Below, piece after piece: positions 16,464 through 23,406 of a DNA stretch of 64,000 bases; positions within the stretch are counted from its first letter, which is position 1; every line of letters starts with the position of its first letter. Below the pieces are notes generated by a model. That model did not search any database. It saw only the letters and a list, made by a program, of their open reading frames with translations, and was not told the DNA's origin. Source of the DNA: an uncultured Acidobacteriota bacterium (GTDB lineage Bacteria > Acidobacteriota > Thermoanaerobaculia > UBA5066 > DATFVB01). Location: NCBI GenBank assembly GCA_963813155.1, contig CAWEYG010000002.1, positions 160,001-224,000 on the forward strand, in the 5' to 3' direction. Made by a program: the position numbers and the translations under genes.

Positions 16464-17168
16464 ATGAACACCGTCGTTTTCGACATCGAGACCGTGGGAG
16501 TCGACTGGACCTCGCTCGACGAGGCGCAGCGGGCGTACCTGCTGAAGAACGCGAAAACCGAAGAAGAACAGCGGCTCGTGCCCGAGTGGCTCTCGCTGTG
16601 GCCGATGACCGGAAAAATCGTCGTCCTCGCAATGCAGAACGTGGAGACCGGCAAGGGCCGCGTCTGGTTCGAGAAGACCGACGGACGCTCGGAAGAGAAA
16701 TCCGAAGACGGCCTCTTCGACTTCGTCGGGGACAGCGAGCCGGCGTTCCTGGAAGAGTTCTGGAAAGCGGTCTCGAAATTCGACCGCTTCGTCACGTTCA
16801 ATGGCCGCGGCTTCGACTGCCCGTGGATGATGCTTCGAAGCGCCGTGCTCGGCATCCGGCCGTCGCGCAACCTCATGGGCTACCGGTACTCCCTGCGGCC
16901 GCACGTCGACCTGCTGGAGGTCCTGACGCTGTTCGGGTCGGGGGGAACCGCCGCGAGGAAATTCAACCTCGACTTCTTCTGCAAGACGTTCGGGATCGCG
17001 AGCCCGAAGGAAGAAGGGATGGACGGCTACTCAGTCGGCCCGTACTACCGGGAAGGTCGACTGCCGGAGATCGCCCGCTACTGCCGCCGTGACGTGGAGG
17101 CGACGGGCGCGCTCTTCAAGCGACTCGAAACGACCTTGATTCCCGTTCTCGACAACTCGAGAAGCTGA
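16464..17168 (+). CDS. 3'-5' exonuclease, PolB-like RNase H fold
   Basis: VFDIET, TFNGRGFD, HVDL, YCRRDV (DEDDy motifs). Confidence 0.88.
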   Translation: MNTVVFDIETVGVDWTSLDEAQRAYLLKNAKTEEEQRLVPEWLSLWPMTGKIVVLAMQNVETGKGRVWFEKTDGRSEEKSEDGLFDFVGDSEPAFLEEFWKAVSKFDRFVTFNGRGFDCPWMMLRSAVLGIRPSRNLMGYRYSLRPHVDLLEVLTLFGSGGTAARKFNLDFFCKTFGIASPKEEGMDGYSVGPYYREGRLPEIARYCRRDVEATGALFKRLETTLIPVLDNSRS

Positions 17169-17180
17169 GCCGGCGAGCCC

Positions 17181-17655
17181 CTAGTCCGACTTCGCCTTGA
17201 CGAGCGTGATCTTGTCGAACGCGAAGATGACCGACGCGACCGGCGCAGTTGCCGCTGCCCGAAGAGAGCTGGGTAATCGCGACGGGCGAGACGCCGTCGA
17301 GCTTCCAGTCGATCAGTACGGTTCCTTCGTTGTCGAGACTGAGGATCTCGATGGATTTCGGCGAGATCGAGCCGCCGGCCCCAGCCTCGTTCAGCCAGTC
17401 CGACAGGCCCGCGAGGCCCTTCGGCGTGAGGGTCAGCGTCAGGCGGGGAGTCGGGGCGGGCGCGGTGATCTGGCGCGGCGAATAGGCGATGTCCAGCGCC
17501 CGCTCGAAATCGATCGCAAACCCGGCGGCTCCCGGAGTGTCGGCCCCGTCCACCCGCAGCGCGAAATTCTTCGGGTTCGGGTTCGTCGTCTGCGCCGCTG
17601 CCGCTGCGGCGAAGAGCGCGAGGGCGATCGCGAACGGTCCGATTCGGGTCTTCAA
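17181..17655 (-). CDS. Secreted protein with phage tail-tube (T4 gp19/Hcp)-like sequence pattern; single frameshift near 17255
   Basis: AAGGAGG, 5 nt, then TTG start; signal peptide MKTRIGPFAIALALFAAAAAA|Q; NFALRVDG, LSDWL, KSIEILSLDNEGTVLIDWKLDGVSP; continues in a shifted frame as ATAPVASVIFAFDKITLVKAKSD*. Confidence 0.6.
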
Positions 17656-17728
17656 CGGAGCCTCCTTGGTTACGACGACCCGATCGTAACACCGGAGCGG
17701 CTCCGGGGGATCGGGTAGAATCGCGCGC

Positions 17729-18292
17729 ATGCCGAAGCTGTCTTCCCAGGACATTGGCGCCGAGTTCGCCGGTCCCGCCAAGGCCTATCCCCCGAAGGTC
17801 CCCATCGAGGGGGTCCGGGTGCACCGCCTCGCTCGCCACGTCGACGACCGCGGGTTTTTCATGGAGGTTTTTCGAAGCCGCGCGACCGGGGCCCACGGCG
17901 CGGCGCTCGCGGAATTCTGGGCGGGAGTCGACGCGGCCCAGTTGAACTTCTCGATCGTCAACGCCGAGAACCACGTGAAGGGCCTGCACTACCATCTCCA
18001 GCAGGAAGACATCTGGTTCTGCCCGCCTCCGTCGAAGATCAAGATCGTGCTCTTCGACCTCCGAAAGGATTCGAAGACCTTCCAGCAGACGCAGGTCCTT
18101 GTCGCCGGCGACGGCAACGACATCGTCGTGCGCATTCCGGAAGGCGTCGCGCACGGCTACCGCCCTCTGACGAACCCCTGCTCGCTTTTCTACATCGTGA
18201 CGAAGCCCTTCGAGCTCGACGATCCCGACGAGTTCCGGGTCGCCTGGGATCATCCGGCCATCAAGAACTTGTGGGAGACCCCCAACGGATAG
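17729..18292 (+). CDS. rmlC: dTDP-4-dehydrorhamnose 3,5-epimerase family (cupin)
   Basis: DDRGFFMEVFR, KGLHYH, FDLRKDSKTF, IPEGVAHGY, WDHP. Confidence 0.82.
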   Translation: MPKLSSQDIGAEFAGPAKAYPPKVPIEGVRVHRLARHVDDRGFFMEVFRSRATGAHGAALAEFWAGVDAAQLNFSIVNAENHVKGLHYHLQQEDIWFCPPPSKIKIVLFDLRKDSKTFQQTQVLVAGDGNDIVVRIPEGVAHGYRPLTNPCSLFYIVTKPFELDDPDEFRVAWDHPAIKNLWETPNG

Positions 18293-19753: not shown

Positions 19754-20539
19754 ATGAGAGCGCTCTACCAGGGACGAAACGTCGAGGTCCGGGAGGAAGG
19801 GAACGGCCCGCCGGTCGTTCTCGTCCACGGGTATCCGCTGGACGGCGACATGTGGAACCCGGTGTCCAGCATTCTCGCCCGGAAGTTCCGCGTGTTGCGG
19901 CCGGACCTCCCGTCGCGGCGCGACACGCCGCATCCGACCTCGCCGACGGTCGCGGAGTATGCCTCGTGGATCTCCACCGTCGCGCAGGCGGCGGAATCTC
20001 CGGCCGGCATCGCCGGGTTCTCCATGGGCGGATACGTCCTGCTCGACCTCCTGAAGCGCAAACCGGCGTTCCTGCGCGCGGCTGCGTTCGTGGACACGAG
20101 AGCCGAAGCCGACGACGAGAAGGTTCGCGCCGCGCGAAACGCGGCGATCTTCACGGCCCGGGAGATGGGCCCGTCCGCCGTCTCGGACGGCATGGTCCCG
20201 AAGCTGCTCTCCCCGGCCGCCCGGAGCGACCGGCAGATCGCCTTCGCGGTGCGCGCGATCACCCGGCGCCAGAACCCGAACTCCCTCGAGAACGATCTGC
20301 TCGTCATGCAGGGGCGGCCCGACTCGACCGAGTTCCTCGCGGAGATCGGGATTCCGTGCCTCGTGGTTCGCGGCAGCCTCGATGCGATCACGCCCGCGGC
20401 CGCGGCCGAAGCGATGGCGAACCGGATCCCGGGCGCGCGCCTCGTGACGATCGAGGGAGCCGGCCACCTGACTCCGATGGAGAAGCCGGCGGAAGTCGCG
20501 GCGGCTCTCGGCGAGTTCTTCGAGAAGGCGCTTCTCTAG
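19754..20539 (+). CDS. Alpha/beta hydrolase (PcaD-like)
   Basis: VLVHGYPLD, GFSMGG, GSLD, GAGHL. Confidence 0.9.
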   Translation: MRALYQGRNVEVREEGNGPPVVLVHGYPLDGDMWNPVSSILARKFRVLRPDLPSRRDTPHPTSPTVAEYASWISTVAQAAESPAGIAGFSMGGYVLLDLLKRKPAFLRAAAFVDTRAEADDEKVRAARNAAIFTAREMGPSAVSDGMVPKLLSPAARSDRQIAFAVRAITRRQNPNSLENDLLVMQGRPDSTEFLAEIGIPCLVVRGSLDAITPAAAAEAMANRIPGARLVTIEGAGHLTPMEKPAEVAAALGEFFEKALL

Positions 20540-23406
20540 AAGGCCACCCGCATCCCGAAACGCACGCTGCGCGGCGGCTGCCGCAGGACCGGTTTCTGTA
20601 GTTCGGGTTCGTCGGGGTCGGGCTACCGTTGTCAGCCTCCGCGAAGTCCCACCGCTCGTCCAGCAGAACCGGCCTCTGGGCGTTCAGCAGATTGAAGACG
20701 TCGGCCATCAGATTGATCGTCACCGGCCCGACCGCGAGGGGGTACCCGAGGTGCAGGTCCGCCTCGTAGGTGGACGGCGTCCGCCCTTCCGATCCCCGCT
20801 TCGTCAGGAACAGCTCGTACCGCCCGTACCCGTCGACGAATCCGTATCGCGAGATCGGCGTCCCGGTGCGGATAGTAGGTCGAGAGGCCGACGTTGAGAC
20901 CGAATGGCGCGGTGTAGGTTCCCGAGAGCTTGAGCTGACTCCGCCGGTCGTTCGACAGCGGGCCGCGGTTCGTGATCGGAGCGTAGCTCGCGAGCGTTCC
21001 GTCGAGAAAGTGGTTCGTCTGCGAAATCCGCGTAGTCGTAAGCGGCGGAAATGTTCGGATCGGCACCGACGTTCGTGAAGGGCGCGTACTCGCCGTCGTA
21101 GTTGCCGTCGAGCTTCGACCAGAGATACGAGGCGAGCATCGACCAGTTCTTGCTGAAGCGCTTCGTCGCATCGACTGCACTCCCGCGGAAAATTCGCTTC
21201 GCCGGCTTGCAGCGGTAAGGTACCGGCGGTCGAGTCGTAGTTGAAACGTCGAATCACGTTCTCGTCATGATTCCCTCGCCAGGATTGCCGATCGAATAGA
21301 CGCCGTCGACCGGGTCCGACAGGAAGTCCTCGATCACTTCGCCGTAGTTCCGATAGATGTACTTCACGCCAACCGCGAAATCGGGGACGATCTCGCGTTC
21401 GCCTCCGAGGACGAACTCCCGCACGTACTGGCCGCGCAGGTTCGGGTCGGCCGGCTCGATGTTCGCGCCGACGATGTTCGAGTTGGTGCCGAGGTCCGAA
21501 GCGGCGCTGTCTCCCGGCGCCGGATGAAAGTCGGTCGGCGAGTAGTTGAAAATGTGCGGCTGACGCTCGTACGAATACGACCGGATCACGAGGTCCATTG
21601 GAATCTCTTCGTAGAAGCGGCCGAACGAGCCGTAGACCTTCGTCTTCTGGTCGCGCGACGGGTCCCACGTGAATCCGAAGCGGGGCGCGAAGTCTTTCTT
21701 CAGGTCTATCTGCTGGACGCCCGCGGAATCGATGATCTTCTGGTTGTCCCACCGGACGCCGAGGTTCACGGTCAGGTTCGGCAGGATGTTCCACTTGTCC
21801 TGGACGTACGCCGTCAGCATCTTGTGCTCGGGCGACGCGTTCAGCTCCGAGAGCGGCGCGTCCTCGATCGTCGCGGTCTTCGTGGTCCAGTAGTTGTGCT
21901 GATAGATGAGCGGCAGGTGCGTTGTCGCGGAGTTCGGGTTCGTGAAGATCGAGCACCTGCTGGCCGCCCGACATGCGCTTGGTCACGTCGGCGGTTTCCT
22001 TCTCGTAGTCGAACGCCTCCCTTGATCTCGTGGTTTCCGAGGAACTTCGAAACCGAGCAGCGCGAAGTGATCGCGGCTGAAGTTCTTCTTCTGGATCAGC
22101 CCGAAACCGCCGGTCTGGAAGCCGCCGTTCATCTGATTCGACGAATTCGACGACGTCGCCGAGCCGCCGACGCCGGGCCGATCGAGTTTCGCTCTTCGTG
22201 CCGGGCCGCCTGAAGCGCGACGAGCCACGTACCCGCCGAACAGGTAATCGCCTCGCAACGGAGTAGTTCGGCCGCCGAAGTCCTGCCGTCCGAGAAACGT
22301 GTTCGGGTCGCCGTTCAAGGTGTGGTTGTTGTCGTTGATCGCGCCGCGTGCCGGCGCGGGTCCTGGAAGTACGATCCCACGATCGATCCGGCGTCGCCGA
22401 GCCGGTACGTGAGCTTCCCGGAGGCGAGATTCCGCGTCGACTTCGAATCGAACTCCTGGCCGGTGCTCGGTCCGTTCGTCAAAACGTTCTTCAACGTGTT
22501 GTCGACCCTGTCGTACGCGCCGAAAAACCATAGCCGGTCCTTGAGGAGGAATCCGCCGAGATCGGCGCCGAAGTCCTTTTTCGTGTAGCCCACCGACGCG
22601 CCCTGCGTCGTTTCGCCCACTTTTTCCGTATTCGCCTGAAGGCCGTCGTTGTCGTAGTAGCCGAACGCCTCGCCGTGGAACTCGTTTCCGCCCGACTTCG
22701 TGATGACGTTGATGATGCCGCCCGTCGAGCGGCCGTATTCGGCCTCGTATCCGCCCGTCTTCACCTCGATTTCCTGGATGAACTCGTAGTTCAGCGTCGT
22801 ACCCTGTTTGCCGTACTCGACGCCGCTCGTGTCGATGCCGTCGATGACGTAGGCGTTCTCCGAGCTCGAGGAGCCGTAGACGGTGAGAGAGGCCGAGTCG
22901 TTCTGCGGGTTGTACGGGTCGACGTCGTAGGAAACTCCGGGCGTCACCTGCGCGATCGAGGCGAAGTTCCGGTCGGTCGGGATCGTCTGGATCAGGTGCT
23001 GGTCCAGGTTCGTGCCGATCGTCGTGCTCGTCGTGTCGATGACCGGCGCCTCGCCGGTGACGACGACCGATTCCTTCGCCGAAGGCCTCATCTGGAAATC
23101 GACGACGCTCGTGCCGCCGAGGGCGACGGTGACCGCTTTCTTCTCCGTCGCGAAGCCCGCGAGGGTGGCGGAGACCTGGTAGCGGCCCGGAGGAAGGACC
23201 GGCAGCCGATAGGCGCCGCGCGAATCCGTCACCGCCGTCTGCGCGCCCTGCAGAGCGGGTCCCGTCGCCTCGACGTTGACTCCCGGCAGGGCGTCCCCGT
23301 TCTCGCCGAGTGTCCGGCCGGCGACCGATCCGGTCGTCTGCGCGCGCAGCGCAACGGCAGGCACAAGGGCAATCAACGCAAGCCAGAATTGCCGACGAAT
23401 TCGCAT
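20536..23406 (-). pseudogene. Oar-type TonB-dependent receptor (carboxypeptidase-regulatory N-domain), broken by many frameshifts in 20560-22400; assembly error or pseudogene
   Basis: Signal peptide, QTTGSVAG, LPGVNV, KTGGYEAEYGRSTGG.INVITKSGGNEFHG; fragments YVQDKW...LGVRWD, FAPRFG, DVFNLLN; ends RSVRFGMRVAF*. Confidence 0.85.

What the first reader, a model, noticed from the sequence alone, without database searches (positions are those of the whole stretch)
17181..17655. Orphan phage tail-tube (gp19/Hcp-like) protein carrying a Sec signal peptide
Seen: a strong AAGGAGG RBS, a TTG start and a classic signal peptide (MKTRIGPFAIALALFAAAAAA|Q). The mature chain runs NFALRVDG...RLTLTL...LSDWL...KSIEILSLDNEGTVLIDWKLDGVSPVAI and, after repairing a frameshift near 17255, ends ...VASVIFAFDKITLV. 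Known: this beta-strand pattern (NF.v.iDG, l.dW, k.i.i.llD..G..v..W.l....P, terminal strand) resembles T4 gp19/eCIS Afp1-5/Hcp tube proteins, which normally lack signal peptides and sit in phage, T6SS or eCIS loci. Here it stands alone with its own candidate promoter (TGtTACGAT) between an exonuclease and rmlC. Inference: a domesticated tube protein exported to the periplasm or surface, possibly forming rings or filaments. The ORF track misses the true C-terminus.
Basis: partly seen in the sequence, partly recalled or inferred. Interest (0 to 1): 0.75.

Follow-up and report, generated by a model that had tools for sequence, protein, structure and literature searches.

The report
Sec-exported orphan tail-tube-like protein
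A small soil-bacterial gene encodes a protein distantly related to the inner tube of phage-tail-like injection machines, but it carries an export signal and has none of the machine's other parts nearby, so it looks like a tube protein recruited for a new job in the cell envelope.

Summary
On the minus strand, 17655 to 17181, an AAGGAGG site and a TTG start open a gene with a classic Sec-type signal peptide. One extra base at 17246-17248 breaks the frame. All relatives are intact at about 157 aa, and short-read contigs from three runs lack the extra base. The break is therefore probably an assembly indel.

The protein belongs to a very small family: 30 hits among 1.84 billion representatives. 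Carriers found are uncultured Thermoanaerobaculia/Acidobacteriota. 52 of 59 family sequences show a signal peptide; the other 7 look truncated or mis-started. dN/dS is 0.12-0.35.

Profile searches link it weakly but consistently to eCIS/phage tube proteins. PF06841 matches 38 of 41 members, all checked scores below cut-off. Afp1 scores E 1.2e-4, and hhalign gives 85% probability.

The gene sits beside a PolB-like exonuclease in 9 of 9 genomes of two families. No sheath, baseplate, Hcp or TssC gene was found in its own genome.

Best reading: an exapted tube-fold protein exported to the envelope.

The parts
17181..17655 (-). Whole gene for the exported tube-like protein. It would be 157 aa if the extra base is ignored. 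TTG start at 17655-17653, TAG stop at 17183-17181.
   Evidence: Homologues are mostly 154-159 aa (range 125-188) and collinear end to end.
17593..17655 (-). Signal peptide, codons 1-21. Predicted signal peptidase I site A-x-A before Q22.
   Evidence: In alignment A1, A21 is conserved in at least 90% of members and Q22 and T23 are invariant. The heuristic is positive in 52 of 59 family sequences.
17248..17592 (-). Mature chain, residues 22-136, read in frame 0.
   Evidence: PF06841 matches residues 72-129.
17246..17248 (-). Site of the single extra base that shifts the frame by +1. Its exact placement within these three bases is ambiguous.
   Evidence: one gap column in L002, L003 and L004; one base 'left out' at 17248 in X1 and at 17246 in X2 and X3.
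17184..17246 (-). Last 21 codons of the protein, in the +1 frame. They include the terminal strand F-x-F-D-K-I-T-L-V.
   Evidence: This stretch matches the conserved C-terminus of all full-length homologues.
17661..17667 (-). Ribosome-binding site AAGGAGG, 5 nt before the TTG.
   Evidence: A GGAGG-like motif sits at the same place in orthologous loci.
17683..17691 (-). Extended -10-like element TGTTACGAT; candidate promoter of the gene.
   Evidence: exact TGnTACGAT in 5 of 7 upstream regions. The consensus scan does not support it (0 sites).
16464..17168 (+). Convergent neighbour: PolB-like 3'-5' exonuclease. This is the conserved synteny anchor.
   Evidence: PF10108 at E 3.5e-20. It lies next to the tube-like gene in 9 of 9 genomes of families f1 and f2.
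17729..18292 (+). Divergent neighbour: RmlC-like cupin.
   Evidence: PF00908 at E 1e-21. TIGR01221 scores 59.8 bits against a cut-off of 155.75.

Best explanation
The gene encodes a 157-aa precursor. A Sec-type signal peptide of 21 residues is followed by a single domain of about 136 residues. That domain is a remote homologue of the inner tube protein of extracellular contractile injection systems and phage tails (Afp1, Pvc1, gp19 type). An ancestor of two Thermoanaerobaculia families acquired the gene, and it has since been inherited vertically at one chromosomal site next to a PolB-like exonuclease. It is under purifying selection and is unconnected to any sheath, baseplate or T6SS genes. 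The frameshift in this window is most likely an assembly indel, so the organism probably makes the full protein. Inferred mechanism: the precursor crosses the inner membrane unfolded through Sec. It is cut before the invariant Q-T, folds in the periplasm, and works there or further out independently of a contractile machine. It most plausibly acts as a homo-oligomer (a ring like free Hcp or tube subunits) that binds or scaffolds an envelope component. Shown here: the gene, the signal-peptide features, conservation, synteny, orphan status and profile-level homology. Inferred only: export, cleavage, the fold, and oligomer or ring formation. My odds: homology and export about 0.8; assembly error about 0.8; ring-forming oligomer about 0.3.
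For: Homology to tube proteins:
- PF06841 is the only Pfam family hit. It matches 38 of 41 members at E<=0.01, best 7.8e-6.
- 6 of 46 homologues carry a precomputed PF06841 label.
- The family profile against PDB sequences ranks Afp1 first (6rao_A, E 1.2e-4, query 62-151 on chain 54-146 of 149). Next come 9r9h_B 'phage tail protein' (1.6e-3) and Pvc1 (0.083).
- hhalign against a canonical Acidobacteriota tube protein gives 85.4% probability, E 5.8e-6.
- The profile also hits proteins made of 5-6 Hcp domains: P0059 at E 7.2e-12, with PF05638 at 2e-88.

Export:
- A basic n-region, a hydrophobic core and a small-x-small site occur in 52 of 59 sequences. Canonical tube proteins have none.
- A21 is conserved in at least 90% of members; Q22 and T23 are invariant.
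- The start position is kept with TTG, GTG or ATG and a GGAGG-like site.

Functional and native:
- dN/dS is 0.12-0.35.
- GC is 0.669 against 0.667 for the window, and GC3 is 0.86, like the neighbours.
- The gene lies next to the exonuclease in 9 of 9 genomes of f1 and f2, and in 0 of 20 genomes of f3, f5 and f6.
- The same neighbours occur in a clade only 40% identical.

Orphan:
- The own genome shows no sheath, baseplate J, Hcp or TssC.
- 4 of 5 other carriers lack a sheath. In the fifth, the sheath and a canonical tube gene lie more than 100 kb away.
- There are 0 matches in viral contigs, phage records and plasmid records.

Assembly error:
- Contigs of three runs from two studies lack the extra base.
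- The 21 out-of-frame codons still encode the conserved C-terminus.
- A TonB-dependent receptor gene in the same window is spread over three frames relative to L002.
Against: - No family score seen reaches a curated threshold: 18.3 bits against 28.2 for PF06841, and at most 19 bits against 62.4 for TIGR02241.
- PHROGs, PADLOC and NCBIfam give nothing for the closest homologues.
- The profile matches cover mainly the C-terminal two thirds. The N-terminal 40 mature residues are matched only by eye.
- No structure was predicted, so the fold is not shown.
- Signal-peptide calling used my own heuristic, not SignalP.
- No RNA or protein evidence exists.
- The best run, X1, differs from the window at 13 of 1001 bases. 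It is a close strain and not proven to be the same one, so a real strain-specific frameshift is not excluded.
- A second genome, G286, also has a split copy.
- Nothing in the neighbourhood suggests a partner or a substrate.
Confidence: 0.6

Rival explanations
1. The frameshift is real: in this strain the gene is a recent pseudogene, or makes a protein with an aberrant 43-residue tail in place of the last strand.
For: The window sequence as given carries the extra base. The best-matching run is a near but not identical strain, with 13 differences in 1001 bases. G286 also has a copy split over two frames. A nearby TonB-dependent receptor gene is broken as well, which could mean gene decay.
Against: The out-of-frame tail still encodes the conserved C-terminus with no further damage. 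All 3 runs that cover the site lack the base. The extra base sits at a codon where relatives differ (Ser in P0003, Ala in L002), as expected if a consensus merged two variants. Several single-base breaks within about 16 kb fit an indel-prone assembly better than independent decay events.
Confidence: 0.18
2. The protein is not a tube homologue. It is an unrelated beta-rich periplasmic protein, and the weak PF06841 and Afp1 matches come from chance or convergence.
For: All matches seen are below curated cut-offs. Profile search of 1.84 billion representatives returned none of the thousands of canonical tube proteins at E<=1e-3. No fold test was possible.
Against: Four different comparisons point to the same family and the same collinear region. 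The top three PDB hits are all tube proteins. The hits to Hcp-repeat proteins are independent of Pfam PF06841.
Confidence: 0.1
3. The exported protein is a defence decoy. A periplasmic tube mimic caps or misdirects the incoming tube of phages, tailocins or injection systems as they cross the envelope.
For: It has the right compartment and the right fold family for binding tube or tape-measure ends. It evolves faster than its neighbours (40% identity against 60-66%), as expected for proteins in conflict.
Against: There is no PADLOC match, no defence-island context, and the neighbours are housekeeping-like. dN/dS is well below 1. It has a fixed chromosomal position, not a mobile one. This reading is pure inference.
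Confidence: 0.07
4. The N-terminal hydrophobic stretch is an uncleaved membrane anchor, so the domain is tethered to the outer face of the inner membrane and not released.
For: The hydrophobic core is long (about 17 residues) and alanine-rich. Cleavage was not tested.
Against: The small-x-small motif and the invariant Q-T directly after it are the best-conserved features of the N-terminus, while the core itself varies freely. That is the pattern of a cleaved signal peptide.
Confidence: 0.1

Closest known systems
eCIS inner tube proteins Afp1 / Pvc1 (PDB 6rao, 6j0b) and other Pfam PF06841 Phage_T4_gp19 members
   Same: Similar size: about 136 mature residues against 149-150. The order of motifs is collinear from the first strand to the terminal strand. 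These are the best profile hits.
   Different: Canonical members score 114-122 bits on PF06841, have no signal peptide and lie beside a sheath gene. This family scores about 17-24 bits in the scores seen, always has a signal peptide, and has no sheath or baseplate partner. That Afp1 and Pvc1 are the tube subunits is recalled knowledge; the PDB table gives only their names.
Hcp (T6SS tube, PF05638), including proteins made of tandem Hcp domains
   Same: Same superfamily signal: the family profile hits P0059 (six Hcp domains) at E 7.2e-12. Protein-language-model features rank an Hcp cluster at 0.86, which is a lead only. Hcp is known to exist as free hexameric rings that bind cargo (recalled), which is the model for the proposed mechanism.
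   Different: Pfam reported only PF06841 for the 41 members at E<=0.01, so none matched PF05638. No Hcp or TssC was found in the genome. Hcp is exported by the T6SS itself, not by Sec (recalled).
TIGR02241 'conserved hypothetical phage tail region protein'
   Same: There is one weak match, to the distant clade member P0050 (E 9e-4).
   Different: The score is 19 bits against a cut-off of 62.4. There is no match for the window's closest homologues P0004 and P0020.

Membership tests
Pfam PF06841 Phage_T4_gp19 (phage / eCIS tube) | Sequence score at or above the curated gathering cut-off (28.2 bits) | tested here: not met
   The window protein scores 18.3 bits, P0004 17.2 bits and P0050 23.5 bits. 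38 of 41 members match at E<=0.01, best 7.8e-6, but no score I saw passes the cut-off. 6 of 46 homologues carry a precomputed PF06841.19 label whose threshold I cannot check.
Pfam PF06841 Phage_T4_gp19 (phage / eCIS tube) | Tube-protein fold (beta-barrel with extended hairpin) resembling solved Afp1, Pvc1 or gp19 | not testable with these tools
Sequence-profile collinearity with Afp1 covers query 62-151.
Pfam PF06841 Phage_T4_gp19 (phage / eCIS tube) | Encoded with sheath, baseplate and spike genes of a contractile system | tested here: not met
   The own genome (90.8% complete) shows no PF04984 or PF04865. 4 of 5 other carriers have no sheath. The neighbours are an exonuclease, an RmlC-like cupin, a MutY-like protein and a radical SAM protein.
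Pfam PF06841 Phage_T4_gp19 (phage / eCIS tube) | Cytoplasmic protein without a signal peptide | tested here: not met
   52 of 59 family sequences have signal-peptide features. Five canonical tube proteins have none.
Pfam PF06841 Phage_T4_gp19 (phage / eCIS tube) | Assembles into stacked hexameric rings | not testable with these tools
Hcp / T6SS tube (PF05638) | PF05638 match and T6SS genes (TssB/C and others) in the genome | tested here: not met
   PF06841 was the only family reported for the 41 members at E<=0.01. No PF05638 or PF05943 was found in the own genome.
Sec / signal peptidase I substrates | Basic n-region, hydrophobic h-region, small-x-small cleavage site; no lipobox Cys and no twin-arginine motif | tested here: met
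   My heuristic script was positive in 52 of 59. The A-x-A then Q-T pattern is conserved. Cys near the site appears only sporadically, and no RR motif was seen in the listed N-termini. SignalP itself was not available.

The most novel reading that the evidence does not exclude
After Sec export, the tube-fold protein polymerises on its own into rings or a short tube in the periplasm or on the cell surface, with no sheath, baseplate or tape measure. That would be a new, non-contractile, Sec-dependent envelope structure derived from a phage tail tube. It might serve as a conduit or cargo holder, or as a cap against incoming tail tubes.
Probability: 0.2. Interest if true: 0.8.

Novelty: new variant of a known kind. 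Interest (0 to 1): 0.55.

Why it matters
Tail-tube proteins are known as cytoplasmically assembled parts of phage tails, tailocins, eCIS and T6SS. This family kept the tube domain, gained a Sec signal, lost every partner, and has been conserved for a long time at one chromosomal site. That would be a clear case of a virus-derived structural module taking on a new role in the cell envelope. It offers a simple test system of one small gene for two questions: whether a tube subunit can assemble outside the cytoplasm, and what such a ring would hold. The carriers are uncultured soil Acidobacteriota, whose envelope biology is almost unknown. Limits: the family is tiny, the function is unknown, and the fold is not yet verified.

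Tried and rejected
- **Structure and complex prediction.** No fold or ring test was therefore made.
- **ESM Atlas.** It did not hold P0004. For P0020 there was no structure model, and only feature hits below 0.9 to Hcp and gp19 clusters, which are leads only.
- **PHROGs.** Only an E 0.24 hit to an unnamed family.
- **PADLOC.** Nothing.
- **Generic promoter and terminator scan.** 0 sites of each kind.
- **RNA evidence.** No RNA holder was listed.
- **Run X6.** It does not cover the gene.
- **Longest-open-frame test.** My test for which assembly is broken was uninformative, because this GC-rich DNA has long spurious frames.
- **Programmed +1 frameshift.** Rejected: no relative has the extra base.
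- **Recent horizontal or prophage origin.** Rejected on composition, synteny and the absence of matches in viral, phage and plasmid collections.
- **Functional link to the RmlC-like gene.** Considered but not supported. Other DNA separates the two genes in L004 (about 2 kb) and in L026 (a DUF1326 gene).
- **Hits P0070 and P0072.** These are repeat-rich proteins. I set them aside by eye as probably spurious repeat matches and did not scan them against Pfam.
- **Literature.** Four full-text searches found no paper describing a tail-tube or Hcp-like protein with a Sec signal peptide. From PMC12019908 I read one passage, which reports an abundant Phage_T4_gp19-domain protein in a secretome. Its Table S2 could not be seen because supplements are closed, and it might say whether that protein has a signal peptide.

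Full report
**What is in the sequence**

The feature lies on the minus strand. Reading the reverse complement of 17655-17116 gives a 179-residue frame that starts at TTG. AAGGAGG lies at 17667-17661, five bases upstream of the start. The first 21 residues have a K-T-R n-region, a 17-residue hydrophobic core and A-A-A before Q22.

After residue 136 the frame continues into 43 residues that resemble nothing. The +1 frame instead encodes 21 residues ending in the strand F-A-F-D-K-I-T-L-V and a TAG at 17183-17181. The break lies at 17246-17248, not 17255.

**The frameshift**

All full-length homologues are intact at about 157 aa and end with the C-terminus found in the +1 frame. A DNA alignment with three orthologous loci shows exactly one extra base in the window.

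Contigs of three public runs from two studies cover the site and lack that base. X1 spans the whole 1001 bases with 13 differences; X2 and X3 also cover the site; X6 does not. The extra base sits in a codon where near relatives differ (Ser in P0003, Ala in L002). This looks like a consensus that kept both variants.

The same window also carries a TonB-dependent receptor gene. Its intact orthologue in L002 carries TonB-dependent receptor barrel domains. In the window it is spread over three reading frames relative to L002. I read the break as an assembly indel with odds of about 0.8. A real strain-specific frameshift is not excluded, because X1 is a close strain and not proven identical. A second genome, G286, also has a split copy.

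**The family**

A word-indexed search found 46 proteins at E<=0.01, from 125 to 188 aa. All are called 'hypothetical'. Those that carry an organism name are from Thermoanaerobaculia MAGs.

A profile of 41 members was read against 1.84 billion representatives. It found only 30 proteins at E<=1e-3, and 14 at E<=1e-10. These include:
- a more distant clade of 32-42% identity (P0049-P0054), one member of which is named as from an Acidobacteriota MAG;
- two long proteins built from five or six Hcp domains (P0059, P0077).

My signal-peptide heuristic was positive for 52 of 59 family sequences. The 7 misses are four N-terminally truncated calls of 125 aa, one over-extended start, and two with scrambled N-termini. 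In the alignment A21 is at least 90% conserved and Q22 and T23 are invariant, while the hydrophobic core varies freely. This is the pattern of a cleaved Sec signal. There is no conserved Cys (so no lipoprotein) and no twin-arginine motif.

dN/dS among orthologues is 0.12-0.35. For the window's in-frame part against L002 it is 0.12.

**Relation to tube proteins**

- Pfam gives one family only, PF06841 Phage_T4_gp19. It scores 18.3 bits for the window protein (cut-off 28.2), covering residues 72-129.
- 38 of 41 members hit it at E<=0.01, best 7.8e-6.
- The family profile against PDB sequences ranks Afp1 first (E 1.2e-4, query 62-151 on chain 54-146 of 149). A 'phage tail protein' follows (9r9h_B, 1.6e-3), then Pvc1 (0.083). 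Two more tail proteins score E 0.36 and 0.83. Unrelated proteins, an endoglycosidase and T2SS protein M chains, score E 0.15-0.26.
- hhalign against a canonical Acidobacteriota tube protein gives 85.4% probability.
- Atlas features point the same way, but only as leads.

For contrast, the canonical tube proteins of the same phylum (L010, L011) are 150 aa, score 114-122 bits on PF06841, have no signal peptide and lie directly beside a sheath gene.

So remote homology to the tube superfamily is well supported at the profile level. Membership of PF06841 by its own threshold is not met.

**Context and distribution**

The own genome is 3.8 Mb in 23 contigs and 90.8% complete. It has no other PF06841 match and no sheath, baseplate J, Hcp or TssC.

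Of five other carriers, four have no sheath. The fifth (G408) has a sheath and a canonical tube gene more than 100 kb from the exported copy. No relative was found in IMG/VR contigs, 50,697 phage records or 72,556 plasmid records.

In a sample of 401 genomes of the phylum, the family was found only in the window's own family f1 and in f2 (4 of 4). It was absent from f3 (0 of 3) and from the rest. The only two other matches are the canonical tube genes L010 and L011, which are weak matches.

The local gene order is radical SAM/SPASM, PolB-like exonuclease, the tube-like gene (convergent with the exonuclease), RmlC-like cupin (divergent) and a MutY-like gene. It is kept in L002, L003 and L004.

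Using the exonuclease as an anchor, the tube-like gene lies within 1.5 kb of it in 9 of 9 genomes of f1 and f2. It does so in 0 of 20 genomes of f3, f5 and f6 that have the exonuclease. One of the nine, G024, is unpublished.

Even the distant clade (L026) keeps the RmlC-like gene, the tube-like gene and the exonuclease together, with a DUF1326 gene and a PilZ gene inserted. A PilZ gene is also present in L004, so it was probably lost in the window's lineage. Between the window lineage and the L026 lineage the exonuclease is 66% identical, the cupin 60% and the tube-like protein 40%. The exported protein therefore evolves faster than its neighbours.

GC and GC3 match the genome. The gene is an old, vertically inherited resident, not a prophage remnant.

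**Expression signals**

The 73-nt divergent intergenic region holds TGTTACGAT at 17691-17683, 27 nt before the start codon. TGnTACGAT is exact in 5 of 7 orthologous upstream regions, has one mismatch in L003, and is absent in L026. The surrounding sequence is not conserved.

Only 12 nt separate the stop codons of the convergent genes, and no terminator-like site was found. No RNA run was available.

**How it most likely works**

*Shown:* a conserved, selected, orphan gene for a signal-peptide-bearing protein with profile-level homology to tube proteins.

*Inferred:* Sec export, cleavage before Q-T, folding in the periplasm, and action independent of any contractile machine.

From recalled knowledge, free Hcp and tube subunits form hexameric rings and Hcp rings hold cargo. 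On that basis the most likely mode is a homo-oligomeric ring that binds or scaffolds an envelope component. I give this about 0.3. A monomeric binding role is equally open. A decoy role against incoming tails is possible but unsupported.

**Novelty and verdict**

Four literature searches found no description of a Sec-signal tube or Hcp-like protein. One secretome paper mentions an abundant gp19-domain protein, with no such claim in the passage I read. I class this as a new variant of a known kind: the tube fold, exported and orphaned. It is of moderate interest. The family is small and its function unknown, but it is a clean and cheaply testable case of exaptation.

Noticed in passing
window 20539-22638 (-): A TonB-dependent receptor / outer-membrane beta-barrel gene. 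The L002 orthologue is 732 aa with PF25183 and PF00593. In the window it is spread over three reading frames, with single-base extras near 20872 and 21020. It is either a broken gene or further assembly indels.
   Followed up: partly
L009/L012 = G286:C1:1524391-1524868 (-): The orthologous tube-like gene in another genome (2 contigs) is also split into two adjacent frames, covering query 1-115 and 116-157. I did not check whether this is a sequencing indel.
   Followed up: no
P0059 (1045 aa) and P0077 (1139 aa): These are long proteins built of five or six tandem Hcp domains. P0077 also has C-terminal cadherin-like domains. This is another apparently machine-independent use of the tube fold in large, probably extracellular proteins.
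   Followed up: partly
L026 8496-8864 (-) and L004 8665-8994 (-): A small PilZ-domain gene lies between the tube-like gene and the exonuclease in two other lineages. It is missing in the window, where only 12 nt separate the two stop codons.
   Followed up: partly
No rmlA, rmlB or rmlD genes were seen beside it. Its substrate is unknown.
   Followed up: partly
L004 5990-8000: About 2 kb lies between the RmlC-like gene and the tube-like gene in this genome, with no Pfam match in any of the five open frames tested.
   Followed up: partly
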